Shown: positions 31,760-51,123, counted from the stretch's first letter. The stretch is DNA of 62,637 bases from Candidatus Nanopelagicales bacterium (GCA_023253325.1 JALRGY010000002.1:1-62637), one strand, 5' to 3'. Made by a program: numbers and translations. Notes: generated by a model not told the origin, from the letters alone.

Positions 31760-31760
31760 C

Positions 31761-37187: not shown

Positions 37188-39356
37188 ATGGCGGAACGGT
37201 CATTTGCCAACGAAGTCCAGGAACTGCGCCTTGGCGCTGGTGCTGAGTTCCGTGGGGAGGGAATCCTCGCGGTCACAAAGGGACTGTTGCAGTCCGGAGT
37301 CGCCTATGTAGGTGGCTACCAAGGTGCTCCTATTTCCCACCTCATGGATGTCCTCGGTGATGCCCACGAAATTCTTGAAGAACTTGACGTCTATTTCGAA
37401 AACAGTGCATCCGAGGCAACCGCGGCGGCGATGCTCGCTGCATCGGTGCACTATCCACTCCGTGGGGCCGTTACGTTCAAGTCAACGGTCGGCACGAACG
37501 TTGCATCCGATGCACTTGCAAACTTAGCTTCCGGCGGTGTGCTTGGCGGCGCTCTCATTATTATCGGTGAGGATTACGGCGAGGGCTCGAGCATTATGCA
37601 GGAACGCTCACACGCGTTTGCCATGAAATCCCAAATGTGGCTCCTCGATCCAAGACCAAACCTCACCGCAATCGTAGATTTTGTTGAAAAAGGTTTCGAA
37701 CTCTCTGAAGCAAGTAGCACCCCCGTCATGTTGGAGTTGCGCCTGCGCTCTTGCCACCTGCACGGGTCATTTATCACACGCGACAACAAACGGCCCCCGT
37801 TCACTTTGAAGGAAGCCATCGAGAACCCACAGCGCGATGTCAGTCGCGTTGTGCTGCCGCCATCAAGCTTCACGCACGAACAAGAAAAGGTGAAGGACCG
37901 TTGGCCCGCGGCCGTTAAATTCATCCAAGAAAACGAACTCAATGAATTCGTTGCGGAAAAAGATCAGAACATCGGCATTATTTTGCAGGGTGGACTCTTC
38001 AACACTGTTAATCGCTCACTTGAATTACTGGGTTTGTCTGACCCCTACGGGAATAGTCAAATACCGCTCTACGTTCTCAATGTGACCTACCCGATCATTG
38101 ATCAAGAAGTCCTTCGTTTCTGTGAAGGCAAAGATGCAATTCTCTTGGTTGAAGAGGGTCAGCCTGATTACATCGAACAAAACATCAACACGGTTTTGCG
38201 TCGTGCGGGTGACACAACAGCACTACATGGCAAAGACCTACTGCCCGTTGCTGGCGAATACACACCTGCAGCCGTGACCAAGGGCGTAACCGCATTTATA
38301 CAAAAGTACCTTCCCAGCAAGATCAACTCCGAAAACTTGCCTGCAATCGTTTTTGATAACGACGATCCACGTAGTCCATTCGCGCCACGAGTTGCTCCCG
38401 AGTTAGTCCAAGGGCGACCACCTGGTTTTTGTACCGGTTGCCCTGAGCGCCCGATTTTTGCGGCCCTGAAGCTTGCTGAACGGGAAGTTGGGTCACACAT
38501 CGTCAGCGCGGACATTGGCTGCCACCTGTTTTCCATCAACGCACCGTTCAATATCGGTGCTACAACAATGGGCTATGGCCTTGGCTCTGCAAGTGGGTCC
38601 GCTTTCAACGCAAAGGACTCGGACAAACGAACAATCGCTTTCATGGGCGACGGAGGCTTTTGGCACAACGGCCTAACCAGTGGAGTTGGCAACGCAGTGT
38701 TCAATGAAAATGATCAGTTATTGGTTGTGGTTGACAATGCATACAGCGCGGCAACCGGCGGACAGGACGTACTTTCATCACGCGCCGAAGCACTCAATCG
38801 CTCCACCAACCACCCCATCGAGCGCGCGGTCCGCGGTATCGGTGTCAAGTGGTCACGAACCATGACGAATACATTCAAAGTGGCTGAAATGCGAGACCTT
38901 TTCAAGGAAGCACTCACAACAAAAGAAAAAGGGCCCAAAGTCATTGTTGCTCAGAGTGAATGCACCCTGAATCGAGAGAGGCGGGAGAAGCCTGCACGCG
39001 CCAAGAAAATCAAAGAAGGCAAGCGGGTGGTCCGAGAGCGCTACGGCGTTGACCCTGAAACCTGCACTGGTGATCACTCCTGCATACGAATTTCTGGGTG
39101 CCCATCTTTGACCATTGGCCCCAACCCTGACCCAATGCGCAATGACCCGATCGCGACAGTGTTAGACAGTTGCGTTGGCTGTGGTCTCTGTGGCGAAAAC
39201 GCACATGCCGCAGCCCTCTGCCCCTCGTTCTACCGAACTGAAGTTATTTACAACCCCAGCTGGTGGGACAAAGCCAAACTAGGAATTCGACAGAAGTACA
39301 TCGGTTGGCTGCAAAAGGGAATTGAAAAGCAACTTGTCGGAATTGATGCTGCATGA
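37188..39356 (+). CDS. iorA: indolepyruvate/arylpyruvate:ferredoxin oxidoreductase alpha subunit (TPP and 4Fe-4S binding)
   Basis: GYQGAPISH N-terminal pyrimidine-binding region, FCTGCPERP, GDGGFWHNG TPP motif, and the C-terminal Cys cluster CVGCGLCGENAHAAALCP. ATG at 37188. Confidence 0.85.
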   Translation: MAERSFANEVQELRLGAGAEFRGEGILAVTKGLLQSGVAYVGGYQGAPISHLMDVLGDAHEILEELDVYFENSASEATAAAMLAASVHYPLRGAVTFKSTVGTNVASDALANLASGGVLGGALIIIGEDYGEGSSIMQERSHAFAMKSQMWLLDPRPNLTAIVDFVEKGFELSEASSTPVMLELRLRSCHLHGSFITRDNKRPPFTLKEAIENPQRDVSRVVLPPSSFTHEQEKVKDRWPAAVKFIQENELNEFVAEKDQNIGIILQGGLFNTVNRSLELLGLSDPYGNSQIPLYVLNVTYPIIDQEVLRFCEGKDAILLVEEGQPDYIEQNINTVLRRAGDTTALHGKDLLPVAGEYTPAAVTKGVTAFIQKYLPSKINSENLPAIVFDNDDPRSPFAPRVAPELVQGRPPGFCTGCPERPIFAALKLAEREVGSHIVSADIGCHLFSINAPFNIGATTMGYGLGSASGSAFNAKDSDKRTIAFMGDGGFWHNGLTSGVGNAVFNENDQLLVVVDNAYSAATGGQDVLSSRAEALNRSTNHPIERAVRGIGVKWSRTMTNTFKVAEMRDLFKEALTTKEKGPKVIVAQSECTLNRERREKPARAKKIKEGKRVVRERYGVDPETCTGDHSCIRISGCPSLTIGPNPDPMRNDPIATVLDSCVGCGLCGENAHAAALCPSFYRTEVIYNPSWWDKAKLGIRQKYIGWLQKGIEKQLVGIDAA

Positions 39357-40954
39357 CCGTCACAAACTCACCAGTTAGTGCGGCTTCGATCACTCCTAGT
39401 TCCAGTGCGCGCCCATTGACCATGGCGATCCTGGCAATGGGTGGTGAAGGTGGTGGGGTCCTCGCTGACTGGGTGGTTGCTGTTGCCGAAAGAAACGGCT
39501 ACTTTGCACAAAATACATCGGTCGCGGGTGTGGCTCAACGCACGGGAGCCACCGTCTACTACGTTGAAATGCTGCCAAAGAGTGGGGATAACCCCGAACA
39601 AAGAGAACCGATTTTGAGCACAATGCCCACGCCCGGTGAGGTGGACATTGTCGTGGCGTCTGAATTAATGGAATCCGGGCGCGCAATTCAACGTGGATTC
39701 TGCACCCCGGATCGCACGACACTCATTGCCTCCACGAATCGGGTCTACTCAATGCCCGAGCGCACAGCCATGGGCGATGGACGCATTGATTCACAAGGGC
39801 TCATTGACGCCGGCAAGAATTCAGCCAAAAGGTTCATCCGTGCCGACTTCAACAAACTAGCAATTGATAACCGCAGTGTGATCAGCGCATCGCTTTTCGG
39901 TGCCATCGCCGCTGCTCAAGTTATTCCGTTTACCCGCGAACAATGTGAAGACATTATTCGCGGCGGAGGCAAGGGAATTGAAGCCAGTCTTGCTGCCTTC
40001 GATGCAGGTTTCAATGCGGCTCTCGCGTCAGAGCGACCCGTTGTTGAACTCACAATCGGTTCACGCCCACCCGAGGTCGAGAAATCAGGTCCAACAGCTG
40101 AAGTCCTCTCCATGGCGATTAACAATCCCAGTGAGCTAGTCGGGCCGAGACTCACCCAGTGTGCCGAACGCATTCATTCCGAGTTTCCCGAGCAGGCTCG
40201 CTACATGCTGGTTGAAGGCATTAAGCGATGCGCCGAATACCAAGATGTCAAATATGCCGAGCAGTACCTTGATCGCGTCGCACGTGTTACCCAGGTCGAT
40301 TCAACTCCCGATAACAAGCTAACCCTCGAGGCGGCCCGCTACACAGCTTTATGGATGACCTACGAAGACACCATTCGTGTCGCTTTTCATAAGACCCGCA
40401 AAGTGCGCTTTGATCGAGTCAAAGAGGAATCACGGGCATCGGACGCTGAAATGGTTCAAGTGCGCGAATTTCTTCACCCACAGATCGAAGAGATCACCGA
40501 CACCCTTCCCACGCCAATGGGTCGTTGGCTCCTCAATTCAAAGCCTTTCCAGTGGCTAGTTTTCAAAATCACCAATAAAGGCATCAAGATTCAAACATCA
40601 TCGGTCTGGGGATTCACCGTGCTTTACCTACTCGCCAAGCTTCGACCACTGCGACGCCGTTCGCTTCGTTTCGGAATTGAACAAAAGCGAATTGATAACT
40701 GGATTTCCATGCTCGTTTCTTTAGCTCCCGGCAATGGCGAGTTGGCCTATCAAGTGTGCCTGTGTCAGCAACTTATCAAGGGCTACGGCGACACCCATGC
40801 CAATGGCCTGCGCAATTTCACTGAAATCATTGATTACATTCCAACGGCCGAGAAGTCTCCAGATCCGGCTAACAAGATCAAAGAACTTCGAGGTGCAGCC
40901 CTGTCAGATGAAACAGGAAAAGCACTCACAGTGGCCCTAGGGCGAGCGCTTTAG
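39353..40954 (+). CDS. iorB: indolepyruvate oxidoreductase beta-subunit family protein (long form)
   Basis: AMGGEGGGVLADW and VAGVAQRTGAT motifs of the gamma/POR-type domain. 4-nt overlap with iorA, which suggests translational coupling. Confidence 0.75.
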   Translation: MTVTNSPVSAASITPSSSARPLTMAILAMGGEGGGVLADWVVAVAERNGYFAQNTSVAGVAQRTGATVYYVEMLPKSGDNPEQREPILSTMPTPGEVDIVVASELMESGRAIQRGFCTPDRTTLIASTNRVYSMPERTAMGDGRIDSQGLIDAGKNSAKRFIRADFNKLAIDNRSVISASLFGAIAAAQVIPFTREQCEDIIRGGGKGIEASLAAFDAGFNAALASERPVVELTIGSRPPEVEKSGPTAEVLSMAINNPSELVGPRLTQCAERIHSEFPEQARYMLVEGIKRCAEYQDVKYAEQYLDRVARVTQVDSTPDNKLTLEAARYTALWMTYEDTIRVAFHKTRKVRFDRVKEESRASDAEMVQVREFLHPQIEEITDTLPTPMGRWLLNSKPFQWLVFKITNKGIKIQTSSVWGFTVLYLLAKLRPLRRRSLRFGIEQKRIDNWISMLVSLAPGNGELAYQVCLCQQLIKGYGDTHANGLRNFTEIIDYIPTAEKSPDPANKIKELRGAALSDETGKALTVALGRAL

Positions 40955-42248: not shown

Positions 42249-43019
42249 CTATTTTTGAACCAAAGCTAAAACTCGACAAGGGCTGCCTGATCCCTTAACG
42301 ATGGGAAGCGGTGCAACAACCACGACTGCACCCGTGATGGGAAGCTTGTCCAGGTTGCGTAACTGCGTTACGCCACACTTATTTGCACCCATAAACATGT
42401 TGTGACAAGGAAATGGTGGGTCAAATGCCATGGCACCACCCGCATCAGTTCCAACGGTTTCCACACCCCACCCAAGAATCTCACTCTCAGAGAGGTACTT
42501 GGCGGCTTCGGGTGTCACACCTGGTGTGTGCGGGCCATTTTCGTCGGCATTTGCAAATGCAACAGGATCATCACCGTACCGTGACCAACCGGTGCGGAAC
42601 AGGAACCATGAGTGTGGAGGGATGGGGCCATTCTCTGCTTCCCAAGCTTTCACATCTTCCAAGGTGAGACAGTAGTCAGGGTTTGCCGCCACCTCGGCGG
42701 TTTTGTCAATGATTACGGCGGGGCCAACTAGACGCTGCGCTGGGATCTGGCTGACATCGTCTTTGTCCTGGCCCGTTACCCAGTGAATAGGAGCATCGAC
42801 GTGTGTGCCCGTGTGCTCACCCGTGTGAACGTTATTCCAATACCAAGCAGGACCACGATCGTCATATCGACTGATCTCTTCAAGCTCGAAAACAGCGGTC
42901 TGGCCAAATTCCGGTGGAAGCGCCAGCACGGGTGTCCCCGAATGAAGCGGTGAAGTCAAGTCAATTACTTGAACGGAGCCATCAACTATCGAGGCTGCTA
43001 ATGAATTGAGATCTGTCAT
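42249..43019 (-). CDS. cyclase-family metal-dependent hydrolase (kynurenine formamidase / isatin hydrolase fold)
   Basis: HTGEHTGTHVDAPIHW matches the HxGTHxDxPxH metal-binding motif of the cyclase/arylformamidase family. 256 aa. Confidence 0.8.
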   Translation of the reverse strand: MTDLNSLAASIVDGSVQVIDLTSPLHSGTPVLALPPEFGQTAVFELEEISRYDDRGPAWYWNNVHTGEHTGTHVDAPIHWVTGQDKDDVSQIPAQRLVGPAVIIDKTAEVAANPDYCLTLEDVKAWEAENGPIPPHSWFLFRTGWSRYGDDPVAFANADENGPHTPGVTPEAAKYLSESEILGWGVETVGTDAGGAMAFDPPFPCHNMFMGANKCGVTQLRNLDKLPITGAVVVVAPLPIVKGSGSPCRVLALVQK

Positions 43020-43064: not shown

Positions 43065-45422
43065 TTATTGCCCTGGCCGCCAGCGTTTTGGCCTATCCGT
43101 GAGTTTTTCTGGCGCTCGCAATTCAAGGCGCGGTTTTGGATCTTCATTGCGTCCCGCAGGGGGCTTACGGCTCCCAGCCGCGTATTGATTCGGCCACGGA
43201 ACTCGATATTCCTGTTCTGTTGCTGCATGCAGGGTCCAAGCTGGGTCATAAAGATGCGGCCGGCCAAGAGCACAGAGATCCGCCCTTCCCGCAGCGATAA
43301 TCGTGTTGACATCGTCCCAACTGCTGATTGAACCAACAGCCATCGTGGCAACTCCGATTACGTTTCGGATTCGATCTGCAAATGGAGTTTGATACGAACG
43401 GCCGTAAGCAGGCTTAGCCTTTGGGGTCGTTTGGCCCGTTGAAACATCGACAATATCTACTCCGTGCTCAGCAAATACTCGAGCCATTTCCACCGATTCC
43501 TCGACGGATAGGCCATCGGGGACCCAATCCGAGGCGGAGATGCGCACACTAATTGGCTTACCCGCAGGCCACACGGCGCGAATGGCATCAAATACTTCGA
43601 GTGGGAAACGCATTCGGTTTTCCAGGCTGCCGCCATATTCATCGGTCCGTTGATTACTCACTGGAGTCAAGAAACTCGACATGAGATAACCGTGGGCGCA
43701 GTGGTATTCCAGCAGATCAAATCCTGCTGCATCAGCATTTTGAGCGCCCGTGACAAATTCTTCAAGGACCGCGTCCATGTCGGCTCGCGTCATTTCCCGC
43801 GGTACTTGGCTGTTTTCCAAATACGGAATGGGCGAAGGAGCAATGATCTCCCAATTGCCATCGGGAAGTGGCTGATCGATGCCCTCCCACATTAATTTTG
43901 TGGAACCCTTGCGACCTGAGTGACCTAATTGCAAACCAATTTTAGACTCAGTCGTGTGCACGAAATCAACAATTTTTTTCCATGCGGTGACTTGTTCGTG
44001 ATTCCAAATTCCACCGCATCCCGGAGTGATCCTGCCCTGCGGTGAAGTGCACACCATCTCTGTCATGACCAGGCCGGCACCTCCCAATGCCCGCGAGCCT
44101 AAATGCACCATGTGGAAATCACCAGGTATGCCGTCCACGGAACAGTACATATCCATGGGGGAGACAACAACACGGTTGGGCAGTTCCAAGTCGCGCAATT
44201 TGAACGGCAGGAACATCGGGGGGCGTGGTGTGGTTCCAGCCGGAACACGACCACTCGCTATTTGATCACGCAAAAGCCACGAATCAACTTCTCGAACAAA
44301 CGCTGGGTCTCGTTCGAGGAGATTGTCATAGGTGATTCGTCTGCTGCGTGTCATCAGATTGAAAGCAAACTGAACGGGCTCTTGAGCAGCGTATTGATTA
44401 ATCTCCTCAAACCATTCCATGCTTGCTTGGGCGGATCGCTGAGTGCTCTTCACCACAGGAAGACGTTCTTCGTCATACGCCTTCAGTGCACTCTCAATTG
44501 TCGGTTGCTCCTGCAAACATGCAGCTAAACTAAGAGCATCTTCCATGGCGAGTTTTGTGCCCGAACCGATGCTGAAGTGTGCCGTGTGTGCTGAATCTCC
44601 AAGAAGTACAAGGTTGTCTTTTACCAATGTGCGGTTTCGAATCGTTCGGAAGGTTACCCATTTACTATTGTTCACGATCAATTCGTGACCATCGAGTACA
44701 TCGGCAAAAAGTTCAGCTACTTTCTCAACACTCTTCATGTCACTGACACCGGGCGGCAATTCCTCTGACTCAAATTGATCAAACCCAGCGTTGCGCCACA
44801 CGTCCTCATGCATTTCAATGATGAATGTGCTGCCTTTGTCATCCATGGGATAGGCGTGAATCTGCATGACTCCGTGAGGAGTATTGCGGATGAAAAATTC
44901 GAATGCTTCAAAAACGAGATCCGTGCCCAGCCACATGAACTTGCATTGACGTGGATCGATCGTTGTTCCAAAGTCAGATTCAAAGGTTGAACGGATCCCG
45001 CTGTTGATACCGTCACTTGCCAACACAAGATCGTAGTTCGCCATGAGTTCTTCAACAGGAGGTGCTTCGGAATTGAAGTGAATGGGAACGCCATGAGCTG
45101 TGGCCCTCCGTTGCAGCACATGGAGCAACTCCTTGCGGCTCATTGCCGCGAAACCATTGCCGCCAATGGTGAACTGAGATCCATCAATGTCTACATCTAC
45201 GTCATCCCAATAGGCGAATGAGCGGCCCATGTCCTCAAAGACAGACTGGTCCGATGCCTTGATCCCACTCAATGTTTGGTCAGAAAAAACAACACCGAAA
45301 CCAAAAGTGTCATCGGGGGCATTTCGCTCCCAAACAGTGATGTCGGCATGTGGATCAATTTGTTTGATGAGGGAAGAGAAGTACAAACCTCCTGGGCCTG
45401 CGCCAACTACTGCGATTTTCAC
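43065..45422 (-). CDS. bifunctional FAD-dependent aryl-CoA monooxygenase / Old-Yellow-Enzyme-type reductase (2-aminobenzoyl-CoA monooxygenase-reductase or salicylyl-CoA 5-hydroxylase-like)
   Basis: The N-terminal half has IAVVGAGPGG, GDSAHTAHFSIGSGT (the DG/GD motifs of group A flavin monooxygenases). The C-terminal half is an OYE TIM barrel (VVSPMDMY, GLQLGHSGRKG, LEYHCAHGYL). The GTG at 45422 with an upstream GGGAAG is preferred over the track start at 45458. Confidence 0.8.
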   Translation of the reverse strand: MKIAVVGAGPGGLYFSSLIKQIDPHADITVWERNAPDDTFGFGVVFSDQTLSGIKASDQSVFEDMGRSFAYWDDVDVDIDGSQFTIGGNGFAAMSRKELLHVLQRRATAHGVPIHFNSEAPPVEELMANYDLVLASDGINSGIRSTFESDFGTTIDPRQCKFMWLGTDLVFEAFEFFIRNTPHGVMQIHAYPMDDKGSTFIIEMHEDVWRNAGFDQFESEELPPGVSDMKSVEKVAELFADVLDGHELIVNNSKWVTFRTIRNRTLVKDNLVLLGDSAHTAHFSIGSGTKLAMEDALSLAACLQEQPTIESALKAYDEERLPVVKSTQRSAQASMEWFEEINQYAAQEPVQFAFNLMTRSRRITYDNLLERDPAFVREVDSWLLRDQIASGRVPAGTTPRPPMFLPFKLRDLELPNRVVVSPMDMYCSVDGIPGDFHMVHLGSRALGGAGLVMTEMVCTSPQGRITPGCGGIWNHEQVTAWKKIVDFVHTTESKIGLQLGHSGRKGSTKLMWEGIDQPLPDGNWEIIAPSPIPYLENSQVPREMTRADMDAVLEEFVTGAQNADAAGFDLLEYHCAHGYLMSSFLTPVSNQRTDEYGGSLENRMRFPLEVFDAIRAVWPAGKPISVRISASDWVPDGLSVEESVEMARVFAEHGVDIVDVSTGQTTPKAKPAYGRSYQTPFADRIRNVIGVATMAVGSISSWDDVNTIIAAGRADLCALGRPHLYDPAWTLHAATEQEYRVPWPNQYAAGSRKPPAGRNEDPKPRLELRAPEKLTDRPKRWRPGQ

Positions 45423-45474
45423 CGGATGAACTTCCCTTCTGAATTTCCCGACACCCACACCTCTTGCGTCTTTT

Positions 45475-45549: not shown

Positions 45550-46359
45550 ATGCCCCCTATGTCAGAAAACCCCAGTCTCGAGACCGCACCACAACGATTT
45601 GCTGGCAAGGTCGCGGTCATCACGGGTGGGGCAGGTGGTCTAGGCCTGGCAATAGCTGAAGCCTTCTGCCACGAGGGCGGGCGCGTAGCCCTCTTTGACG
45701 CGAACCCCGAAGCCGTCACAGCCGGGACTCAAAGTCTTGAGAAACTGGGTTTTTCAGCAAGTGGCGAGTGTGTCGACGTTCGAGATTCACACCAGGTACA
45801 GGCGGCGATGGCTCGAGTGGCCGAGCGCTTTGGTCGAATAGATTCACTCATTGCGGCGGCCGGTGGAAGTTTGGGAACACCTCGCGACTTGGAAGATATT
45901 TCCCCCGAAGACCTAGACCTCGTTATTGACGTCAACATCAAGGGCACTTACCACTGCAGTGCTGCCGTAGTTCCCTACATGCGCTCCCAGGGTGGCGGGT
46001 CAATCGTCACCTTTAGTTCCATCGGAGGCCGGAGCACGAGTCCCGTTACAGGTATTCCCTATGCCGCTGCAAAAGCTGGCATTCTTGGTTTAACCCGACG
46101 ATTGGCGCGCGAAGTCGGGCCCGAAAATATTCGCGTTAATGCCATTGCACCTGGATTATTTCTCACCGGCAGATTACAAGGCATGTTTGATGCGATGAGC
46201 GAAAAAGATCGGAATGAAGTACTCGATTCCATTCCGTTGCACCGCATGCCGAACATTGACGAATGTGTTGAGCCTGTCCTATTTCTGGCAAGCGATGCTT
46301 CGTCTTACATCACGGGGGTTGTGCTCGACGTCAACGGTGGAAGGTTTATGGCCGGTTAA
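45550..46359 (+). CDS. SDR-family oxidoreductase
   Basis: ITGGAGGLG and YAAAKAGI (YxxxK) motifs. The alternative ATG at 45559 has better Shine-Dalgarno spacing. Confidence 0.8.
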   Translation: MPPMSENPSLETAPQRFAGKVAVITGGAGGLGLAIAEAFCHEGGRVALFDANPEAVTAGTQSLEKLGFSASGECVDVRDSHQVQAAMARVAERFGRIDSLIAAAGGSLGTPRDLEDISPEDLDLVIDVNIKGTYHCSAAVVPYMRSQGGGSIVTFSSIGGRSTSPVTGIPYAAAKAGILGLTRRLAREVGPENIRVNAIAPGLFLTGRLQGMFDAMSEKDRNEVLDSIPLHRMPNIDECVEPVLFLASDASSYITGVVLDVNGGRFMAG

Positions 46360-47398
46360 GAAATGGGAGACGAAGCGTAAATTCCCTGCCCCCTGTTATA
46401 CCTTTGGGTCGCCAAATGAGAATGGCTACCAGCGCCGCCGCAATCACCACTCCGCGGGCACCGTTGGGCAACGTGATGTCAATGCCACCAAGGGTTACAC
46501 CACTTTCAAACTCCAACAAAACTTGTCCGATTGCGGTCACCGCAATTGTTCCGACCACCGCACCCCACATGCTGGTAGCACCACCGATAACCAACATTGC
46601 CAACGTGGTAAACGTGAATCCAAGATAAAAGTCACGTGCACTCACAGCACCCGAATGGTGGGCATACATAGCGCCACTGAGTGCTGCGATTCCACCGGAA
46701 ACCGTAAAGAAAAGCACACGTAGGCGCCAGACGCTAGCTCCTAGTGCTCGCGCGGCCAATGGATCTTCCCGTGTTGCGCGCAGAAGGCGCCCTCTCCGAG
46801 AAATCCCAATGAGATAGACCACCACCATGACGACCACTGCCAAGATGATTGATTCATCAACGAATCCGAATTTGGGAACCTGGGGCATGACCTGAGGACC
46901 TGGGCCGATCAGGCGCCAGTTGAAAAACACGTTGTCTGCCACCATAAGAAGCGCAAATGTCGCGATTCCAGCGGCCAGACCGCTCAGTCGCATGAGGAAC
47001 AGCCCGGTGAGGAATGCAAAAAATGCACCTATGGCGACGGCAATGACCAGGCTTGGCCAAATGCCCATGTTAATTGCCTTGAGCGGCTCCCAAAGTTCAT
47101 CTAACACGTTTTCTTTGATTTTGACCGGCACGGTTAATAAACCCGTGGCAAAACCACCGACCATGGCAAACGCTGCCTGACCAAACGACAAAACACCACT
47201 ATTACCGATGAAAACTTGTAAGCCTAAAACCATGACAAGGAGAGCCAAGGTTCCTTCAGTGAGGAAGGTGAATGTAATCGAAATGCTACTGATCACGTAA
47301 GACAAAACCACGATTACAACGATGGGACCAAGTAATTGCTGCCATTGAAAGCGCGTTACACCCGGCAATTGACTTGAGCGCAAGAGATCATCAGACAC
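46346..47398 (-). CDS. ABC transporter permease, LivM-like (HAAT family)
   Basis: Polytopic. Order and size match the LivM component of branched-chain/hydrophobic amino-acid type importers. Confidence 0.82.
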   Translation of the reverse strand: MSDDLLRSSQLPGVTRFQWQQLLGPIVVIVVLSYVISSISITFTFLTEGTLALLVMVLGLQVFIGNSGVLSFGQAAFAMVGGFATGLLTVPVKIKENVLDELWEPLKAINMGIWPSLVIAVAIGAFFAFLTGLFLMRLSGLAAGIATFALLMVADNVFFNWRLIGPGPQVMPQVPKFGFVDESIILAVVVMVVVYLIGISRRGRLLRATREDPLAARALGASVWRLRVLFFTVSGGIAALSGAMYAHHSGAVSARDFYLGFTFTTLAMLVIGGATSMWGAVVGTIAVTAIGQVLLEFESGVTLGGIDITLPNGARGVVIAAALVAILIWRPKGITGGREFTLRLPFLNRP

Positions 47399-48270
47399 TA
47401 CACACGCTCCTTGACAGCCTTATTTGATATCAGTCCGCCAGGGCGCACCAACAGGACGATGATCACGAGAATGAATAGCCATGTGTATGTGTAGACGCGG
47501 TAATTACCCAAAAACGAGTTCAACAGGCTGATCGTTGCACCAACCGCGAATCCGCCCAGGGCTGCTCCTTGTAGGCTTCCTAGCCCACCGATCACCGTGC
47601 CCACGAGTGCAAGGATCGTGATGTTAACGCCAAATAATGGGTCGACACTGCCACGCTGTGTCACCAGAACGAAGGCCACAGCCGCGGCCAACACACCACT
47701 GAAAACAAAGGCCGCACCGATAACACGGTTGGAGCGAACCCCCAATAGGCGTGCCGTTTGAAAATCACTTGATGCGGCACGAATTTGAAGGCCCAAAGTG
47801 GTCTTCTCAATGAAGAACCACATTCCGCCAAGGAGGATTAGAGCGAGAACAATGGTGACAATGCTGCCGCGGGTAATTGTGGTGTCTCCGAATTCAATGA
47901 CTCCCGTCATCCACGGTGCAATTTGACCTGAGAGAGGTAGCGCACCAAAAATAATCTCATAAAACCGCTGCAGGAAAACACTAACCCCAAATGACGCAAT
48001 CAAAAGGACTGCAGGTCCTGCAAGCCGCAATCGTTTAAAGACACTAAATTCCATCAACAGCGCCAAAATTGCCGTACCTGTCACCGCAATCAAAATACTT
48101 AACGGTAAACCAAGGTCAATGGTGACAATAAAAAGATAAGCACCGATCGCTATAAGCTCACCATGCGCAAAGTTTACGAGTCGCATCACACCAAAAACGA
48201 GACCAATACCGAGCGCTGCAAGACCGTAGAGTCCTCCATAACTCAGTGCATCGAGAATAGTTTGAATCAT
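47398..48270 (-). CDS. ABC transporter permease, LivH-like (HAAT family)
   Basis: N-terminus MIQTILDALSYGGLYGLAALGIGLVFGVMRLVNFAHGE is the typical LivH signature. Confidence 0.85.
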   Translation of the reverse strand: MIQTILDALSYGGLYGLAALGIGLVFGVMRLVNFAHGELIAIGAYLFIVTIDLGLPLSILIAVTGTAILALLMEFSVFKRLRLAGPAVLLIASFGVSVFLQRFYEIIFGALPLSGQIAPWMTGVIEFGDTTITRGSIVTIVLALILLGGMWFFIEKTTLGLQIRAASSDFQTARLLGVRSNRVIGAAFVFSGVLAAAVAFVLVTQRGSVDPLFGVNITILALVGTVIGGLGSLQGAALGGFAVGATISLLNSFLGNYRVYTYTWLFILVIIVLLVRPGGLISNKAVKERV

Positions 48271-48992
48271 TCGCGATCCTCTCCGGTGCCGAAGTACGCT
48301 GCTGCAAGCTTTGCTTCGTCCTGCGCGTCAGACTGCGACAACGTCGCTCGTATGTGTCCTTCCCGCATGACTAACGTGCGGACCGCAATACTCATGACCA
48401 GATGAGCTCGTTGTTCGACAACGATAATTGCTGTGCCTCGTTCTTGGATTCGAGCGAGCACTCCGAAGACATCCTGAATAACAGTGGGAGAAAGACCGAG
48501 GCTTGGTTCATCTAATAACAAGAGTTTGGGTTCTGAGACCAATGCTCTAGCGATGGCCAACTGCTGCTGTTGACCGCCACTCAAAAGTCCAGCCTGATGA
48601 TTCTTGTGCGTGGTGAGGACGGGGAAAAGGTCCATGACTTCATCTACTGCTTGCTGTGCACCAGATTTCTCACGTCGACCAGTGAGACCAAGGCGTAAAT
48701 TTTCGTTTACTGTTAGATCAGTGAAAATGGCGCGCCCTTCCGGCACCATGGCTAACCCAAGCCGCACAATATCTTCAGGGTTTTTTCCTTTTATTGATGC
48801 GCCGTCAAAGTCAATGGACCCACTGCTGGCTCGAACTGAACCCGCGAGGGTGCCCAAAAAGGTTGACTTTCCTGCACCGTTGGGTCCAACAATCCCTACA
48901 AGTTCACCCGGTTCCACATCAATGTGGCCGTTGTACAGGACCTGCACTTTGCCATAGCCTGATTGGAGGTCGCGGACAGTGAGCAGAGTCAT
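48267..48992 (-). CDS. ABC transporter ATP-binding protein, LivF-like
   Basis: Walker A GPNGAGKST, signature LSGGQQQ, Walker B LLLLDEPS. Confidence 0.88.
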   Translation of the reverse strand: MTLLTVRDLQSGYGKVQVLYNGHIDVEPGELVGIVGPNGAGKSTFLGTLAGSVRASSGSIDFDGASIKGKNPEDIVRLGLAMVPEGRAIFTDLTVNENLRLGLTGRREKSGAQQAVDEVMDLFPVLTTHKNHQAGLLSGGQQQQLAIARALVSEPKLLLLDEPSLGLSPTVIQDVFGVLARIQERGTAIIVVEQRAHLVMSIAVRTLVMREGHIRATLSQSDAQDEAKLAAAYFGTGEDRE

Positions 48993-49726
48993 GCTCGCCC
49001 TCCATGTAGACCCATGGTGGCATCGCCCAAATAGGCCGATAAAACACCTTCATCGACCAGAGCGTCTTGAGGATTGCCTTCAAAAAGTAGTTCACCCGAT
49101 GCCAACACGAATACCCGAGAACAGGCTGCTGCCACGAGCCCCACATTGTGCTCAATCAGGAGCATGCCGCACCCAGATTCACGGCGAATACTGTCCAGCG
49201 CTGCCAGTAGTGCCGGTGTCTCGTGATCATTGAGACCGGCGGCGGGTTCATCCATGATCAAATAATCAGGTTCAGAGGTTACGGCACGAGCGAGACCAAC
49301 GAGTCGGGAAAGTCCATGTGAAAGCCCAGCTGCAGATTCCGTTTGTACACCTGATAGGCCCAGCATCTCAATAGCCGCGGCAGCACGACCATTCGCTTTC
49401 TTTGTGGAGCATCCAGATCCAATGGCTCCCAAAACTATATTTTCAGTGACTGTCAAATCTGGGAATAATCGTCCAGATTGAAATGTGCGGGCCAGCCCAG
49501 CATGTGTGCGGGCCTCCGGTGTCATTCCGTCGAGATTGCGACCATCAATCGCCACGGTCCCAGAATCCTGAGTCTCATACCCCGCGATTATGTTCACTAA
49601 AGTGGTTTTGCCTGCGCCGTTGGGTCCCAACAACCCAACTACTTCCCCTTTATTGACAGAAACCGTGACATCCTCGAGGACATGAATTGCGCCAAAGGAT
49701 TTCACGATGGACGCAGCCTCTAGCAT
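48989..49726 (-). CDS. ABC transporter ATP-binding protein, LivG-like
   Basis: Walker A GPNGAGKTT, signature-like LSHGLSR, Walker B YLIMDEPAAGL. The ATG at 49726 is preferred; the track ORF extends to 49780. Confidence 0.85.
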   Translation of the reverse strand: MLEAASIVKSFGAIHVLEDVTVSVNKGEVVGLLGPNGAGKTTLVNIIAGYETQDSGTVAIDGRNLDGMTPEARTHAGLARTFQSGRLFPDLTVTENIVLGAIGSGCSTKKANGRAAAAIEMLGLSGVQTESAAGLSHGLSRLVGLARAVTSEPDYLIMDEPAAGLNDHETPALLAALDSIRRESGCGMLLIEHNVGLVAAACSRVFVLASGELLFEGNPQDALVDEGVLSAYLGDATMGLHGGRA

Positions 49727-49848
49727 TTGTGTCACAAAAAGCTCCCGAGAGAAGTGTTGACGCGCGCAATAAGCACACAATGAACACTAGTTGGTGAATA
49801 AGCAGGCTGCGGGGAAAACATGCAATCCCCGCAGCCTGCTGTGTTCAA

Positions 49849-51123
49849 CTAGTTGAGAATTGGCTGTTCTGCAGCGCGGTACTCAATGAATGAATGCTGT
49901 CCATCCTGAATCTGCATGACTGCCATGGGGCGAGTCACGTTAACGTGCAATTCAGGTGAGAAGCTCGTTGGTCCAGCAGTCAGATCAACGCCATTGAATG
50001 TTTCCAATGCTGCAGCAAGGTCAGCACCATTGGTGCTGCCAGCTTGTTCAGCCGCAAGTACAAATGCCTCGATTGTTGAGGCACCCGTGACCAAGCCACT
50101 GGTTGCTGCATCGCTGCCGGTCAGATCCTTGTAGGAGGCCAAAAGTTCGCCAACCTTGGGATTGGGATCGTCACCGAAAACGGATGCGTAGGTCACGAAG
50201 TAGAAGTCCGAAAGATCTGGGACTGCTCCGAGCCAGAACGCACCATCCATGCCAAAGCCGGATACGACTGGTGTTTCAACTCCACCTGCACGAAGTGCAG
50301 CTGCAGCCTCAGCGCCACCACCTGGGTAGGAGCACAGGGCAACGACGTCAGGACTTGAGTCCTTGATTTCCTTGACCTGTGCGGTCACGGGGGCAGCAAG
50401 TGAGCCTTCAGGTGTCTGGCTGAACTCTGGAGCAGAAACGATTTCGCCACCAAGTTGAGTCCAACGCTCTTCGAAGACCTTGCACTGATTCTGGGTGTAC
50501 TTGATGGACATGTCCTTGAACAGTGAAGCCTTGGGGCCAAACTCTGCAAATGCCCATTCAGCCATGATTGCTGCTTCACCGGGGACTGCGGAACCAAGAG
50601 AGAAGCCGAGGGTCAATCCGGCGTCAGGGCCCATGATCGTGTCACCAACACACGGAGCAATAACCAGCACACCGGCATCCTGAGCAACCTGGGAAGCCTT
50701 AGCGTTGACGTCGTAGTCACATGTGACAAGAAGGAGTTGTGCACCCTGTGAAATCAGGTCAGTCGCGATTTGTGCTGCTTTATCAGGGTTTGTCTCACTA
50801 TCTACAGCAATGAGTTCAAGTTGGCAGCCAAGAACGCCGCCCGCTGCGTTGGTCTTATCGATGGCGATACGCGCCGTATCCAAAGCAGGGACGTCAAAAG
50901 GAGACATAAATCCTGTTTGGGCCATGGCCGAACCAACAATGATCGGCTCGGTGCATTCCGCGGCAACTTCCTCTTCCGTGGTTTCTTCCGCTACCGCGGT
51001 TTCTTCCGCTACCGCTTCGGTAGTCGCTTCATCCGCCGTGTCTGATGTTGAGGCGCAGCCCGCGAGCACCAGGCTCAGGCTCGCCGCTACCGCGAGAATC
51101 CCCGCGGTTTTTCGGTTCTTCAT
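49849..51123 (-). CDS. ABC transporter substrate-binding lipoprotein (type I periplasmic binding fold, Leu/Ile/Val-binding family)
   Basis: Lipobox LAGCAS, an acidic E/T/A-rich linker, then a PBP1-type domain. Track start at 51141; ATG at 51123 is equally plausible. Confidence 0.82.
   Translation of the reverse strand: MKNRKTAGILAVAASLSLVLAGCASTSDTADEATTEAVAEETAVAEETTEEEVAAECTEPIIVGSAMAQTGFMSPFDVPALDTARIAIDKTNAAGGVLGCQLELIAVDSETNPDKAAQIATDLISQGAQLLLVTCDYDVNAKASQVAQDAGVLVIAPCVGDTIMGPDAGLTLGFSLGSAVPGEAAIMAEWAFAEFGPKASLFKDMSIKYTQNQCKVFEERWTQLGGEIVSAPEFSQTPEGSLAAPVTAQVKEIKDSSPDVVALCSYPGGGAEAAAALRAGGVETPVVSGFGMDGAFWLGAVPDLSDFYFVTYASVFGDDPNPKVGELLASYKDLTGSDAATSGLVTGASTIEAFVLAAEQAGSTNGADLAAALETFNGVDLTAGPTSFSPELHVNVTRPMAVMQIQDGQHSFIEYRAAEQPILN
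50980..51015 (-). repeat. 2 x 18-bp tandem repeat within the binding-protein linker (encodes AVAEET AVAEET)
   Basis: Read directly on the plus strand: ggtttcttccgctaccgc ggtttcttccgctaccgc. Confidence 0.85.

What the first reader, a model, noticed from the sequence alone, without database searches (positions are those of the whole stretch)
43065..45458. Flavin monooxygenase / Old-Yellow-Enzyme fusion of the dearomatising aryl-CoA oxygenase type
**Seen in sequence.** A single ORF carries an N-terminal group-A FAD monooxygenase (GAGPGG, GDSAHTAHFSIGSGT) joined to a complete OYE-type FMN barrel (HSGRKG, YHCAHGYL).

**Established knowledge.** This architecture is characteristic of 2-aminobenzoyl-CoA monooxygenase/reductase, which hydroxylates and then reduces the ring to a non-aromatic enamine thioester. 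It is also characteristic of salicylyl-CoA 5-hydroxylase.

**Inference.** Substrate identity decides what the whole island does. No gentisate 1,2-dioxygenase-like cupin is visible in the island. That absence argues against a simple salicylate-to-gentisate route and favours the dearomatising ACMR-type chemistry.
Basis: partly seen in the sequence, partly recalled or inferred. Interest (0 to 1): 0.65.

Follow-up and report, generated by a model that had tools for sequence, protein, structure and literature searches.

The report
Anthraniloyl-CoA monooxygenase/reductase beside isatin hydrolase
This is an ordinary member of a known two-flavin fusion enzyme family that most likely oxidises and de-aromatises 2-aminobenzoyl-CoA; its neighbours (isatin hydrolase plus a 2-oxoacid oxidoreductase) suggest freshwater actinobacteria feed it from indole-derived isatin without a CoA ligase.

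Summary
The fusion ORF is real: minus strand, 43065-45458, most likely starting at GTG 45422 (785 aa). It has a complete group-A FAD monooxygenase half and a complete OYE half, and every quoted motif is present. It belongs to the very large ACMR/SdgC family (NCBIfam NF006101, above cutoff). Database names conflict: NCBI says salicylyl-CoA hydroxylase, JGI says anthraniloyl-CoA monooxygenase.

Context favours 2-aminobenzoyl-CoA as substrate:
- The next gene is a full-length isatin hydrolase homologue.
- RidA, an abm-like SDR, a PcaF-like thiolase, a thioesterase and PaaX are in the island.
- A related locus (L028) has the same downstream module plus an anthranilate-type CoA ligase.
- A palindrome shared with anthranilate clusters marks island promoters.

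No cupin, GDO or FAH sequence exists anywhere in the window. Some close relatives do carry a GDO-family bicupin, so de-aromatisation versus simple 5-hydroxylation remains inferred.

The enzyme is a new member of a known kind. The more novel lead is that an IOR-like oxidoreductase replaces the anthranilate-CoA ligase across several lineages, which suggests isatinate is converted directly to 2-aminobenzoyl-CoA. SdgC and Azoarcus ACMR sequences could not be retrieved, so direct orthology was not tested.

The parts
43065..45422 (-). Fusion flavoenzyme (ACMR/SdgC family). N-terminal group-A FAD monooxygenase plus C-terminal OYE-type FMN ene-reductase. Probable start GTG 45422 (785 aa); the mechanical ORF extends to 45458.
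42249..43019 (-). Isatin hydrolase homologue (PF04199 cyclase family), 45 bp downstream of the fusion gene on the same strand. Predicted reaction: isatin to isatinate (2-aminophenylglyoxylate).
   Evidence: PDB 5nnb/5nna/5nmp/4j0n at E 7e-82 to 2e-79, full length; kynurenine formamidases only about 20 bits. 51% identity to LaIHA. Mn ligands and catalytic His/Asp conserved. The fusion/IH gene pair is conserved in several clades.
37101..40954 (+). Two-subunit indolepyruvate:ferredoxin-oxidoreductase-like 2-oxoacid oxidoreductase. Alpha subunit 37101-39356 (TPP domain, Cys motifs); beta subunit 39353-40954 (POR + DUF6537). Inferred reaction: isatinate + CoA to 2-aminobenzoyl-CoA + CO2.
   Evidence: Pfam. 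NCBIfam NF006179 653 bits above cutoff 348, and TIGR03336 280 bits. Motifs. Co-occurrence with IH and complementarity with the anthranilate-type ligase. The substrate is inferred only.
45550..46359 (+). SDR transcribed divergently from the fusion gene; a conserved partner in relatives.
   Evidence: 74-76% identical at the same position in L004 and L007; also present in L028 and L099.
30507..30905 (-). RidA-family enamine/imine deaminase. Inferred role: deamination of the enamine product of the fusion enzyme.
   Evidence: Pfam PF01042 at 69.6 bits; NCBIfam TIGR00004. A RidA is found in nearly all clusters holding this fusion gene.
30902..31675 (-). SDR homologous to the dehydrogenase that directly follows the ACMR gene in abm-type operons.
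   Evidence: 42% identical to the Ralstonia abm SDR and 36-42% (40-42% in three of four) to the alphaproteobacterial ones. Same 3-hydroxybutyrate-dehydrogenase subfamily.
31701..32936 (+). PcaF-like 3-oxoacyl-CoA thiolase.
   Evidence: Pfam. NCBIfam pcaF 409 bits, below cutoff 597. 44-46% identical to the thiolase that ends extended abm operons.
32891..33733 (+). MenB/BadI-subfamily crotonase. Candidate hydrolase for opening the alicyclic beta-ketoacyl-CoA ring (inferred).
   Evidence: NCBIfam MenB 342 bits (below 380) and BadI 304 bits (below 467). Conserved with the fusion gene in L004, L007, L016 and L028; L099 has an ECH-family gene, cut off by the locus end, in the same cluster.
33762..37017 (.). 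Two divergently transcribed CrtI/CrtO-like FAD oxidoreductases (33762-35306 on the minus strand, 35452-37017 on the plus strand). Conserved beside fusion/IH. Role unknown.
25361..30510 (-). ADP-forming acyl-CoA synthetase (28459-30510), generic AMP-forming acyl-CoA ligase (26868-28430) and methylmalonyl-CoA-mutase-like large subunit (25361-26911). In L028 these three directly follow the fusion gene on the same strand.
24465..25364 (+). PaaX-family (acyl-CoA-responsive) transcriptional regulator.
   Evidence: Pfam. NCBIfam TIGR02277 154 bits, below cutoff. A PaaX homologue is present in most related clusters.
51261..51704 (-). 4HBT-type thioesterase, 43% identical to the thioesterase between ligase and fusion gene on Rhodococcus pRLCBG43.
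46346..51141 (-). Liv-type ABC transporter (two permeases, two ATPases, one substrate-binding protein). Syntenic in close relatives.
37045..37056 (.). Exact copy of the palindrome TGACGGTCGTCA, 45 nt (56 nt from its first base) upstream of the IOR-alpha start. Weaker copies lie at 35336-35347 (CrtI-like divergent promoter), 51188-51199 (upstream of the ABC operon) and 45475-45486 (two mismatches, between the fusion gene and the SDR). Candidate PaaX-type operator.
   Evidence: Across 91 loci the motif is concentrated in promoter windows: 12 of 17 exact hits against 0.8 expected, p = 5e-13.
21046..24413 (+). Luciferase-like FMN monooxygenase, AraC regulator, WrbA-like and FMN reductases. Conserved in the clade. 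Role unknown; possibly an upstream oxidation step.

Best explanation
The gene encodes a 2-aminobenzoyl-CoA (anthraniloyl-CoA) monooxygenase/reductase.

How it works (established knowledge of ACMR, not tested here): the N-terminal FAD monooxygenase uses NADH and O2 to hydroxylate the thioester para to the amino group. The C-terminal OYE-type FMN domain uses a second NADH to reduce the non-aromatic tautomer, giving 2-amino-5-oxocyclohex-1-ene-1-carbonyl-CoA.

Supply of substrate (inferred): the downstream isatin hydrolase opens isatin to isatinate. The IOR-like two-subunit 2-oxoacid oxidoreductase then oxidatively decarboxylates isatinate to 2-aminobenzoyl-CoA, taking the place of an anthranilate-CoA ligase.

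Downstream steps (inferred): RidA deaminates the enamine. SDRs, a MenB/BadI-like crotonase and a PcaF-like thiolase open and shorten the alicyclic thioester. PaaX probably controls the genes through a shared palindromic operator.
For: Shown by tools:
- Complete two-domain architecture with an intact FAD motif and the OYE H-x-x-H-x-Y catalytic motif.
- The next gene is a full-length isatin hydrolase homologue with conserved metal and catalytic residues. The pair is conserved in relatives down to 53% identity and in three clades.
- A RidA gene accompanies the fusion gene in almost every cluster examined, which points to a nitrogen-bearing substrate.
- Window genes are homologous to abm-operon genes: SDR 36-42% (40-42% for all but the Ruegeria SDR), thiolase 44-46%, RidA 33-39%. 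The window's thioesterase is 43% identical to the 4HBT thioesterase of Rhodococcus pRLCBG43, a type-B cluster.
- L028 has the window's whole downstream module plus a ligase 58% identical to the experimentally verified pAL1 anthranilate-CoA ligase. L016 has a reduced version of it (BadI-like crotonase, SDR, RidA, PaaX) plus isatin hydrolase and an anthranilate-type ligase (61% to the Ralstonia 2-aminobenzoate-CoA ligase) (PMC3534580).
- Homologues sit on plasmids that produce anthranilate (pAL1, pRLCBG43) and next to kynU or TDO in Proteobacteria.
- Anthranilate-grown Arthrobacter Rue61a contains anthraniloyl-CoA, hydroxyanthraniloyl-CoA and a C7H8O4-CoA (PMC3534580).
- No cupin, GDO or FAH in the window.
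- The IOR pair and the anthranilate-type ligase are complementary across loci: 0 of 6 against 55 of 64, Fisher p = 4e-5. IH and IOR co-occur with an odds ratio of about 41. IORa, IORb and IH lie in tandem in Actinocorallia, beside StyA-like (indole-monooxygenase-type) genes.
- Precedents for IOR-type conversion of a 2-oxoacid to an acyl-CoA: EdcC and PadEFGHI (PMC8085986, PMC5109826).
- A palindrome shared with anthranilate clusters lies in the island's promoter regions.
- JGI's KO-based name for all named relatives is anthraniloyl-CoA monooxygenase.
Against: - No biochemical data exist for this clade.
- Direct comparison with the characterised Azoarcus ACMR and Streptomyces SdgC was not possible.
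- NCBIfam's equivalog name is salicylyl-CoA 5-hydroxylase.
- Relatives at 72-76% identity (L007, L014), and L041, carry a GDO / 5-aminosalicylate-dioxygenase-family bicupin with FAH and a nitrilase-like hydrolase beside the gene. An aromatic 5-hydroxy product followed by ring cleavage is therefore plausible in the lineage, and such genes might lie elsewhere in this genome.
- The window's crotonase belongs to a different subfamily from the abm crotonase, and no acyl-CoA dehydrogenase is present.
- The co-occurrence statistics are not corrected for shared ancestry.
- The IOR substrate is pure inference. 2-oxoacid:ferredoxin oxidoreductases are often oxygen-sensitive.
Confidence: 0.6

Rival explanations
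1. The enzyme acts on 2-aminobenzoyl-CoA, but its physiological product is aromatic 5-hydroxyanthraniloyl-CoA. A thioesterase releases 5-hydroxyanthranilate. This is then cleaved by a GDO / 5-aminosalicylate-dioxygenase-type cupin and processed by FAH, CN-hydrolase and RidA enzymes encoded elsewhere in the genome. That would be a gentisate-like route for the amino analogue.
For: - Close relatives L007 and L014, and L041, have a GDO-family bicupin (317 bits to the gentisate dioxygenase model, 262 bits to 5-aminosalicylate dioxygenase), FAH and a nitrilase-like hydrolase next to the gene.
- L008 and all type-B clusters have cupin, FAH, TesB-like thioesterase and RidA.
- Hydroxyanthraniloyl-CoA was detected in Arthrobacter Rue61a, and ACMR is reported to make the 5-hydroxy product when NADH is limiting (PMC3534580).
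- The window has a 4HBT thioesterase.
Against: - No cupin, FAH or TesB-like sequence anywhere in 62.6 kb, nor in the syntenic L004 and L099 loci.
- The window instead keeps the BadI-like crotonase / thiolase / SDR module. That module occurs without any cupin in L028 and L099.
- The OYE catalytic motif is fully conserved, which argues that the reductase half is used.
Confidence: 0.2
2. It is an SdgC-type salicylyl-CoA 5-hydroxylase. Its product, gentisyl-CoA, hydrolyses to gentisate, which is degraded by a gentisate pathway encoded elsewhere.
For: - NCBIfam NF006101, named 'bifunctional salicylyl-CoA 5-hydroxylase/oxidoreductase', scores above its cutoff.
- NCBI names for relatives say the same.
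- A protein with an MDMPI-type domain lies 35 kb away.
- Some relatives carry a GDO-family bicupin.
Against: - The same NCBI name is applied to homologues that sit beside an annotated 2-aminobenzoate-CoA ligase, kynureninase or tryptophan dioxygenase, and on anthranilate-producing plasmids. The name therefore does not discriminate.
- The window has no GDO, FAH or aryl-acid-type ligase.
- Isatin hydrolase and RidA have no role in salicylate catabolism.
- None of about 50 Streptomyces loci among the 80 most similar genomic loci has a GDO next to the gene.
- The MDMPI hit is only to a generic domain model.
Confidence: 0.07
3. The enzyme acts on a different ortho-substituted aryl-CoA produced inside a larger tryptophan or indole-3-acetate pathway. 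For example, IOR converts indolepyruvate to indoleacetyl-CoA, and later steps involve the mutase, as in the anaerobic iaa route. The isatin-hydrolase homologue would then open a related lactam rather than isatin.
For: - The IOR family's named substrate is indolepyruvate.
- A B12-type mutase, CoA ligases, a thiolase and a crotonase are present. From memory, this resembles the Aromatoleum iaa cluster, whose end product is 2-aminobenzoyl-CoA.
- The functions of the CrtI-like and LLM genes are unknown.
Against: - The hydrolase is 51% identical to three crystallised isatin hydrolases, with the pocket tryptophans conserved.
- In L028 the mutase / ligase module occurs with an anthranilate-type ligase and without IOR or IH, so it acts downstream of the fusion enzyme, not upstream.
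- Even under this reading the likely substrate of the fusion enzyme is still 2-aminobenzoyl-CoA.
Confidence: 0.1

Closest known systems
2-Aminobenzoyl-CoA monooxygenase/reductase (ACMR, AbmA; EC 1.14.13.40) of Aromatoleum (Azoarcus) evansii and the abm-type operons of Proteobacteria
   Same: - Single polypeptide with an FAD monooxygenase half and an OYE half.
- 46-52% identity to the proteobacterial homologues examined in abm-type operons.
- Company of RidA, an SDR (36-42% identical; 40-42% for three of the four alphaproteobacterial SDRs and 42% for Ralstonia), a thioesterase and a PcaF-like thiolase (44-46% identical).
   Different: - No anthranilate-type CoA ligase, no acyl-CoA dehydrogenase and no PRK08258-type crotonase.
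- Instead: isatin hydrolase, an IOR-like pair, two CrtI-like flavoproteins, a MenB/BadI-like crotonase, an ADP-forming CoA synthetase and a mutase.
- PaaX rather than MarR as regulator.
- The A. evansii sequence itself could not be compared.
Putative ACMR of Arthrobacter sp. Rue61a plasmid pAL1 (ARUE_113p00230) and its relatives on Rhodococcus pRLCBG43, Tsukamurella and Streptomyces plasmids (type B clusters)
   Same: - 60-62% identity.
- PaaX regulator, RidA, and a shared promoter palindrome.
- Physiological link to anthranilate through quinaldine or quinolone degradation, and CoA-ester metabolomics in PMC3534580.
- Tsukamurella and Actinocorallia members also have IH plus IOR.
   Different: - Type B clusters carry an anthranilate-CoA ligase, a small cupin, a TesB-like thioesterase and FAH. 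All are absent from the window.
- The window's protein falls in a separate clade with 100% bootstrap support.
Salicylyl-CoA 5-hydroxylase SdgC (EC 1.14.13.209) of Streptomyces sp. WA46
   Same: Same two-domain family, and the name of the NCBIfam model that the protein matches. NADH-dependent para-hydroxylation of an ortho-substituted benzoyl-CoA (from memory of Ishiyama et al. 2004).
   Different: From memory, the sdg cluster holds a salicylate-activating ligase and a canonical gentisate 1,2-dioxygenase. The window has neither, and it has isatin hydrolase and RidA instead.
Isatin hydrolases LaIHA, LaIHB and RsIHA (PDB 5NNB, 4J0N, 5NMP); IOR-family CoA-acylating 2-oxoacid oxidoreductases EdcC and PadEFGHI
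   Same: - The neighbouring hydrolase is 51% identical to LaIHA and keeps the catalytic residues.
- The neighbouring oxidoreductase has the TPP, Fe-S and POR/DUF6537 make-up of the IOR family.
- EdcC and PadEFGHI show that this enzyme class can turn a catabolic 2-oxoacid or arylglyoxylate into a CoA thioester (PMC8085986, PMC5109826).
   Different: No paper in the searched library links isatin hydrolase to an IOR-type enzyme or to ACMR. An isatinate-to-anthraniloyl-CoA reaction has not been described there.

Membership tests
ACMR (2-aminobenzoyl-CoA monooxygenase/reductase) | One polypeptide with an N-terminal group-A FAD monooxygenase and a C-terminal OYE-type flavin reductase | tested here: met
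   Pfam FAD_binding_3 at 16-340 and Oxidored_FMN at 415-747, both essentially complete. End-to-end match to NF006101.
ACMR (2-aminobenzoyl-CoA monooxygenase/reductase) | Intact cofactor and catalytic motifs in both halves (GxGxxG; GD..H motif; OYE H-x-x-H-x-Y) | tested here: met
   All motifs are present and conserved across 101 family members. The feature does not separate ACMR from SdgC.
ACMR (2-aminobenzoyl-CoA monooxygenase/reductase) | Encoded together with a means of making 2-aminobenzoyl-CoA | tested here: inconclusive
   The window has no anthranilate-type ligase; its only AMP ligase is 28% identical. It has isatin hydrolase plus an IOR-like pair, which replace the ligase across loci. 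L028 has the same downstream module with an anthranilate-type ligase, and L016 a reduced version of it. The IOR reaction is inferred.
ACMR (2-aminobenzoyl-CoA monooxygenase/reductase) | Company of RidA and beta-oxidation-type genes for a non-aromatic CoA thioester | tested here: met
   RidA, two SDRs (one 42% identical to the abm SDR), a PcaF-like thiolase, a crotonase and a thioesterase are present. The acyl-CoA dehydrogenase is absent and the crotonase belongs to a different subfamily.
ACMR (2-aminobenzoyl-CoA monooxygenase/reductase) | Orthology to the biochemically characterised A. evansii enzyme | not testable with these tools
   The sequence could not be retrieved. Proxy: 51.7% identity to the Ralstonia protein in an abm-type operon that has an annotated 2-aminobenzoate-CoA ligase.
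ACMR (2-aminobenzoyl-CoA monooxygenase/reductase) | [quoted passage not shown] | not testable with these tools
   Requires an enzyme assay.
SdgC (salicylyl-CoA 5-hydroxylase) | Match to the curated model that bears the name (NF006101) | tested here: met
   1179 bits against cutoff 1078. However, PGAP gives the same name to homologues beside 2-aminobenzoate-CoA ligase, kynU or TDO and on anthranilate-producing plasmids. The model therefore covers the whole ACMR/SdgC family.
SdgC (salicylyl-CoA 5-hydroxylase) | Clustered with a salicylate-activating ligase and gentisate 1,2-dioxygenase / maleylpyruvate pathway genes | tested here: not met
   No GDO-family, small-cupin or FAH sequence and no aryl-acid-type ligase in 62.6 kb at E <= 1. 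The MDMPI-like protein at 7322-8203 matches only a generic domain model.
SdgC (salicylyl-CoA 5-hydroxylase) | Orthology to Streptomyces sp. WA46 SdgC | not testable with these tools
   Neither the sequence nor the paper was obtainable. No Streptomyces locus among the 80 most similar has an adjacent GDO.
Isatin hydrolase (neighbouring gene 42249-43019) | Full-length homology to crystallised isatin hydrolases, with the Mn-binding HxGTHxDxPxH motif and the Asp-His-His catalytic residues | tested here: met
   E 7e-82 to 2e-79 against four PDB sequences (three enzymes); 51% identity. H69, H73, D75, H79, D193, H207, W59, W61 and W80 are conserved. The Gln219 position varies even among active enzymes.
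IOR-type 2-oxoacid:ferredoxin oxidoreductase (37101-40954) | TPP-binding alpha subunit with Fe-S cysteine motifs plus a POR-domain beta subunit | tested here: met
   Pfam TPP_enzyme_C, POR and DUF6537. NF006179 653 bits above cutoff 348. GDGG...DN and CxxCxxC...CP motifs. Substrate specificity was not testable.

The most novel reading that the evidence does not exclude
In several actinobacterial lineages an IOR-like, CoA-acylating 2-oxoacid oxidoreductase works with isatin hydrolase to convert isatin, through isatinate, directly into 2-aminobenzoyl-CoA. This bypasses free anthranilate and the ATP-dependent CoA ligase. The lineages include abundant freshwater Nanopelagicales-like bacteria, Phycicoccus, Tsukamurella and Actinocorallia. 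In this window the thioester is then de-aromatised by the fusion enzyme and degraded by a previously undescribed module: RidA, SDRs, a MenB/BadI-like ring hydrolase, a PcaF-like thiolase, an ADP-forming CoA synthetase and a B12-type mutase. All of it would be under an anthraniloyl-CoA-responsive PaaX regulon. If true, this fills two gaps: the enzyme that consumes isatinate, and the unknown lower part of the ACMR pathway.
Probability: 0.35. Interest if true: 0.65.

Novelty: new member of a known kind. Interest (0 to 1): 0.4.

Why it matters
The enzyme itself only adds a freshwater-actinobacterial clade to a large known family. It also shows that the prevailing NCBI product name (salicylyl-CoA 5-hydroxylase) is probably wrong for most members.

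The context matters more.
- It links indole/isatin breakdown to the 2-aminobenzoyl-CoA pathway in very abundant lake bacteria.
- It proposes a specific candidate for the long-missing step that consumes isatinate.
- It offers a conserved gene set for the still unresolved steps after ACMR. GapMind's authors left that pathway out for lack of knowledge (PMC9007349).
- Two strains that appear to be cultured, Tsukamurella tyrosinosolvens NCTC13231 and Actinocorallia sp. B10E7, carry the IH-IOR-fusion combination, so these ideas can be tested directly.

Tried and rejected
- **Cyclase as kynurenine formamidase (a tryptophan-to-kynurenine route).** Rejected. It scores 31 bits against the TIGR03035 cutoff of 223, and about 20 bits to KynB structures against 278 bits to isatin hydrolase. 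JGI's 'kynurenine formamidase' name for the relatives is therefore doubtful.
- **Class-V aminotransferase 51836-52978 as kynureninase.** Below cutoff (79 against 246 bits), and it lies outside the conserved synteny.
- **MDMPI-domain protein plus CN-hydrolase at 6.5-8.2 kb as a gentisate-pathway remnant.** Only a generic domain match and an amidase-like hydrolase, with no GDO or FAH.
- **OYE catalytic residues as a marker separating hydroxylase-only from hydroxylase/reductase enzymes.** The residues are conserved in all 101 sequences, so they do not discriminate.
- **Type-B small cupin as a disguised gentisate dioxygenase** (which would make type B the SdgC type). No detectable similarity to the GDO family.
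- **Retrieving SdgC and A. evansii ACMR sequences or their papers.** Failed. Plasmid and genome scans returned only context-defined proxies.
- **Promoter and terminator consensus scans around the gene.** No more hits than in shuffled sequence.
- **Window AMP ligase as the anthranilate-CoA ligase.** Unlikely. It is 28% identical to verified or annotated ones, and in L028 its orthologue coexists with a true anthranilate-type ligase.
- **The 'island' as horizontally acquired DNA.** GC is flat at 0.50-0.56 and the region abuts dnaB and ssb.

Full report
**Observation.** The ORF is real. It lies on the minus strand at 43065-45458 (797 aa from the first GTG). Homologues are 783-786 aa and begin at the equivalent of residue 13. 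There a GTG (45422) is preceded by GAAGGGA about 8 nt upstream, so the product is probably 785 aa. Pfam finds an essentially complete FAD_binding_3 domain (16-340) and a complete Oxidored_FMN barrel (415-747). The PDB holds no full-length relative. The C-terminal half resembles YqjM/TsOYE-class ene-reductases and the N-terminal half resembles VioD.

**Family and naming.** NCBIfam's equivalog NF006101, 'bifunctional salicylyl-CoA 5-hydroxylase/oxidoreductase', aligns end to end at 1179 bits against a cutoff of 1078. The family is very large: all 8000 scored candidates have E <= 1e-50. The closest relatives (up to 91% identity) come from freshwater actinobacterial metagenomes and MAGs labelled Nanopelagicales or Actinomycetales. 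JGI names them anthraniloyl-CoA monooxygenase and NCBI names them salicylyl-CoA 5-hydroxylase. The NCBI name does not discriminate. PGAP applies it to homologues next to an annotated 2-aminobenzoate-CoA ligase (Ralstonia), next to kynureninase (Aminobacter), next to tryptophan 2,3-dioxygenase (Ruegeria), and on the anthranilate-producing plasmids pAL1 and pRLCBG43.

**Neighbourhood in the window**.
- Same strand, 45 bp downstream: a PF04199 'cyclase' that is a full-length homologue of crystallised isatin hydrolases. It scores E 7e-82 to 2e-79, is 51% identical to LaIHA, and keeps the Mn ligands, catalytic His/Asp and pocket tryptophans. Kynurenine formamidases score only about 20 bits.
- A Bcr/CflA efflux MFS follows. 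It is absent from the syntenic relative L004.
- Convergent to these: a two-subunit IOR-like 2-oxoacid oxidoreductase. The alpha subunit has a TPP domain and Cys motifs. The beta subunit has POR plus DUF6537 and scores 653 bits to NF006179, above its cutoff.
- Further along: two CrtI/CrtO-like flavoproteins, a MenB/BadI-subfamily crotonase, a PcaF-like thiolase, an SDR, RidA, an ADP-forming acyl-CoA synthetase, a generic AMP ligase, a methylmalonyl-CoA-mutase-like large subunit, PaaX, and an operon with a luciferase-like monooxygenase, AraC and flavin reductases.
- On the other side: a divergent SDR, a Liv-type ABC transporter and a 4HBT thioesterase.
- GC content is flat (0.50-0.56) and dnaB and ssb lie nearby, so this is a chromosomal catabolic cluster, not a compositional island.

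**Comparative genomics.** I examined 97 loci in addition to the window: 17 plasmid records, 8 contigs found by exact protein look-up, and 80 species-representative genomes, eight of them duplicating another locus. The marker-gene table and the motif statistics below rest on the 91 non-redundant sources, the window among them, that were in hand. Three recurrent contexts appear.

| Type | Where | Genes with the fusion enzyme |
|---|---|---|
| A, abm-like | most Streptomyces; same logic in Proteobacteria | RidA, anthranilate-type ligase, ACAD, PRK08258-type crotonase, PaaX |
| B, pAL1-like | Arthrobacter, Rhodococcus, Tsukamurella, some Streptomyces | RidA, ligase, small cupin, TesB-like thioesterase, FAH, PaaX |
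| C, window-like | freshwater actinobacterial MAGs | isatin hydrolase, IOR pair, CrtI-like pair, BadI-like crotonase, thiolase, SDRs, RidA, ADP-forming synthetase; sometimes also a GDO-family bicupin, a nitrilase-like hydrolase and FAH |

In a neighbour-joining tree of 101 sequences, the window's clade has 100% bootstrap support (13 leaves), type B 82% and Streptomyces type A 100%. The deeper branching order is unresolved.

**Which substrate?** Several independent lines point to 2-aminobenzoyl-CoA rather than salicylyl-CoA.
1. Isatin hydrolase produces isatinate, an ortho-aminoaryl compound on the known isatin-to-anthranilate route (PMC6117287, PMC6221969, PMC12538310). The fusion/IH pair is conserved in three clades.
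2. RidA, an enamine/imine deaminase, accompanies the gene almost everywhere. It has no role with salicylate.
3. L028 has the window's entire downstream module: BadI-like crotonase, thiolase, both SDRs, RidA, and the ADP-forming synthetase, W-type AMP ligase and mutase directly after the fusion gene. It also has a ligase 58% identical to the pAL1 anthranilate-CoA ligase, whose activity was shown experimentally (PMC3534580). L016 has a reduced version (BadI-like crotonase, SDR, RidA, PaaX) with isatin hydrolase and an anthranilate-type ligase.
4. Window genes have homologues in abm operons: SDR 36-42% (40-42% for all but the Ruegeria SDR), thiolase 44-46%, RidA 33-39%. The window's thioesterase is 43% identical to the 4HBT thioesterase of the type-B cluster on Rhodococcus pRLCBG43.
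5. The palindrome TGACGNNCGTCA lies 45 nt upstream of the IOR-alpha start (exact match; 56 nt from its first base). It also lies in the CrtI-like divergent promoter and upstream of the ABC operon (one mismatch each), and more weakly between the fusion gene and its divergent SDR. Across the 91 loci, promoter windows cover 4.7% of the bases. They hold 12 of 17 exact hits (0.8 expected, p = 5e-13) and 104 of 233 one-mismatch hits (10.8 expected, p = 1e-73), including the operon promoters of pAL1, pRLCBG43 and Tsukamurella. From memory only, since the paper is not held, this is the operator of the pAL1 PaaX-type repressor MeqR2, whose effector is anthraniloyl-CoA. PMC3534580 confirms only that the pAL1 PaaX-like regulators control quinaldine degradation.
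6. The window contains no GDO-family, small-cupin, FAH, TesB-like or aryl-acid-type ligase sequence at all.

**How is the thioester made?** The window's only AMP ligase is 28% identical to anthranilate-CoA ligases, and in L028 its orthologue coexists with a true anthranilate-type ligase. It therefore probably acts downstream.
- Among the 70 loci held at 20 kb or more, all 6 with the IOR pair lack an anthranilate-type ligase, while 55 of the 64 without IOR have one (Fisher p = 4e-5).
- IH and IOR co-occur (odds ratio about 41, p = 4e-4).
- These tests ignore shared ancestry, but the pattern recurs in at least three fusion-enzyme clades: type C including Phycicoccus L099; type B in Enemella L041 and Actinocorallia L098; and the Solirubrobacterales-like L093. 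Tsukamurella has both IOR and ligase.
- In Actinocorallia sp. B10E7, IORa, IORb and IH lie in tandem next to StyA-like flavin monooxygenases (one fused to a reductase), an SDR and AraC. That is the make-up of the iif indole-oxidation genes (PMC12538310).
- IOR-family or related enzymes are known to turn catabolic 2-oxoacids into CoA thioesters. EdcC does so in aerobic oestrogen degraders, and PadEFGHI converts phenylglyoxylate to benzoyl-CoA (PMC8085986, PMC5109826).

I therefore infer isatin to isatinate to 2-aminobenzoyl-CoA. This step is inference, not shown.

- For the de-aromatising, beta-oxidation-like route here: the OYE catalytic motif is conserved family-wide. The window has RidA, SDRs, a MenB/BadI-like crotonase (BadI is the 2-ketocyclohexanecarboxyl-CoA ring hydrolase) and a thiolase, and it has no cupin or FAH.
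- Against: L007, L014 and L041 carry a GDO / 5-aminosalicylate-dioxygenase-family bicupin (317 and 262 bits, both below cutoff) with FAH and a nitrilase-like hydrolase. L008 and all type-B clusters have cupin plus FAH. L007 has both modules. An aromatic-cleavage fate therefore exists in the lineage and could be encoded elsewhere in this genome.

**Limits.** No sequence or paper for WA46 SdgC or A. evansii AbmA could be obtained, so orthology rests on context-defined proxies. The tree is neighbour-joining only. The co-occurrence and motif statistics are not phylogenetically corrected. All downstream steps and the IOR substrate are inferred.

**Verdict.** The enzyme is a new member of a known kind and is not surprising in itself. 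The noteworthy part is the conserved partnership of isatin hydrolase, an IOR-like oxidoreductase and ACMR, together with an undescribed downstream module. These give testable candidates for two unresolved steps of indole and anthranilate catabolism in abundant freshwater Actinobacteria.

Noticed in passing
window 25361-26911 (-); compare L099 297-2275: The methylmalonyl-CoA-mutase-like large subunit has no B12-binding small subunit beside it; the PaaX gene abuts it. The syntenic Phycicoccus locus has a 154-aa PF02310 ORF directly after the mutase. L028 also lacks one. The role of the mutase downstream of the fusion enzyme is unknown.
   Followed up: partly
window 37045-37056, 35336-35347, 51188-51199, 45475-45486; 70 of 91 related loci: The palindrome TGACGNNCGTCA is strongly concentrated just upstream of cluster genes in all three context types (12 of 17 exact hits in 4.7% of the sequence). 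It is a likely PaaX-type operator. Streptomyces loci mostly show the variant TGACGACAGTCA.
   Followed up: yes
window 33762-35306 (-) and 35452-37017 (+): Two divergent CrtI/CrtO-like FAD oxidoreductases (phytoene-desaturase family, far below carotenoid-enzyme cutoffs) are conserved next to the fusion/IH pair in every type-C locus, and one is present in Actinocorallia and Phycicoccus. No function can be assigned.
   Followed up: partly
window 21046-24413 (+): Operon of an SfnG/NtaA/RutA-like luciferase-type FMN monooxygenase, an AraC regulator (best but weak hit: the anthranilate-dioxygenase regulator AndR, 88 bits against cutoff 350), a WrbA-like quinone reductase and an FMN reductase. Conserved in the clade. 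In L007 the monooxygenase follows the nitrilase-like hydrolase and FAH genes on the same strand.
   Followed up: partly
window 40937-42187 (-): A Bcr/CflA-family efflux MFS transporter sits between isatin hydrolase and IOR-beta. It is missing at this position in the 89%-identical syntenic relative L004, so it is probably a lineage-specific insertion rather than a pathway component.
   Followed up: partly
window 6509-8203: A deaminated-glutathione-amidase-like CN-hydrolase lies next to a protein with a mycothiol maleylpyruvate-isomerase-type (TIGR03083) domain, 35 kb from the fusion gene. With no GDO or FAH nearby, this is not evidence for a gentisate pathway.
   Followed up: yes
L007 4004-7190; L014 5491-8650; L041 848-4023: A GDO / 5-aminosalicylate-dioxygenase-family bicupin (below both equivalog cutoffs) is always accompanied by a Nit6803-type nitrilase-like hydrolase and an FAH-family hydrolase, next to the fusion or IOR genes in some relatives. 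This may be a 5-hydroxyanthranilate ring-cleavage module.
   Followed up: partly
L098 (Actinocorallia sp. B10E7, GCA_039871655.1) 1-20771: A strain with an isolate-style name carries, within 20 kb, StyA-like and StyA2B-like monooxygenases, an SDR, AraC, PaaX, a tandem IORa-IORb-isatin hydrolase run, a CrtI-like protein, a small cupin, a TesB-like thioesterase, FAH, RidA and the fusion enzyme. It is a good experimental system.
   Followed up: partly
relatives of window 42249-43019 in public databases: JGI annotates the isatin-hydrolase homologues of this clade as 'kynurenine formamidase'. NCBI annotates the fusion enzymes as salicylyl-CoA 5-hydroxylase. The evidence here suggests both names are misleading.
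   Followed up: yes
window 51836-52978 (-): A class-V aminotransferase-fold protein aligns full length but weakly to the kynureninase model (79 bits against cutoff 246) and somewhat better to SufS-type desulfurases. It lies outside the conserved synteny, where L004 has SbcCD.
   Followed up: partly
window 1247-3920 (+): A CopC-domain ORF is followed by a long ORF that combines CopD and cytochrome-oxidase assembly factor CtaG domains. Unrelated to the finding.
   Followed up: no
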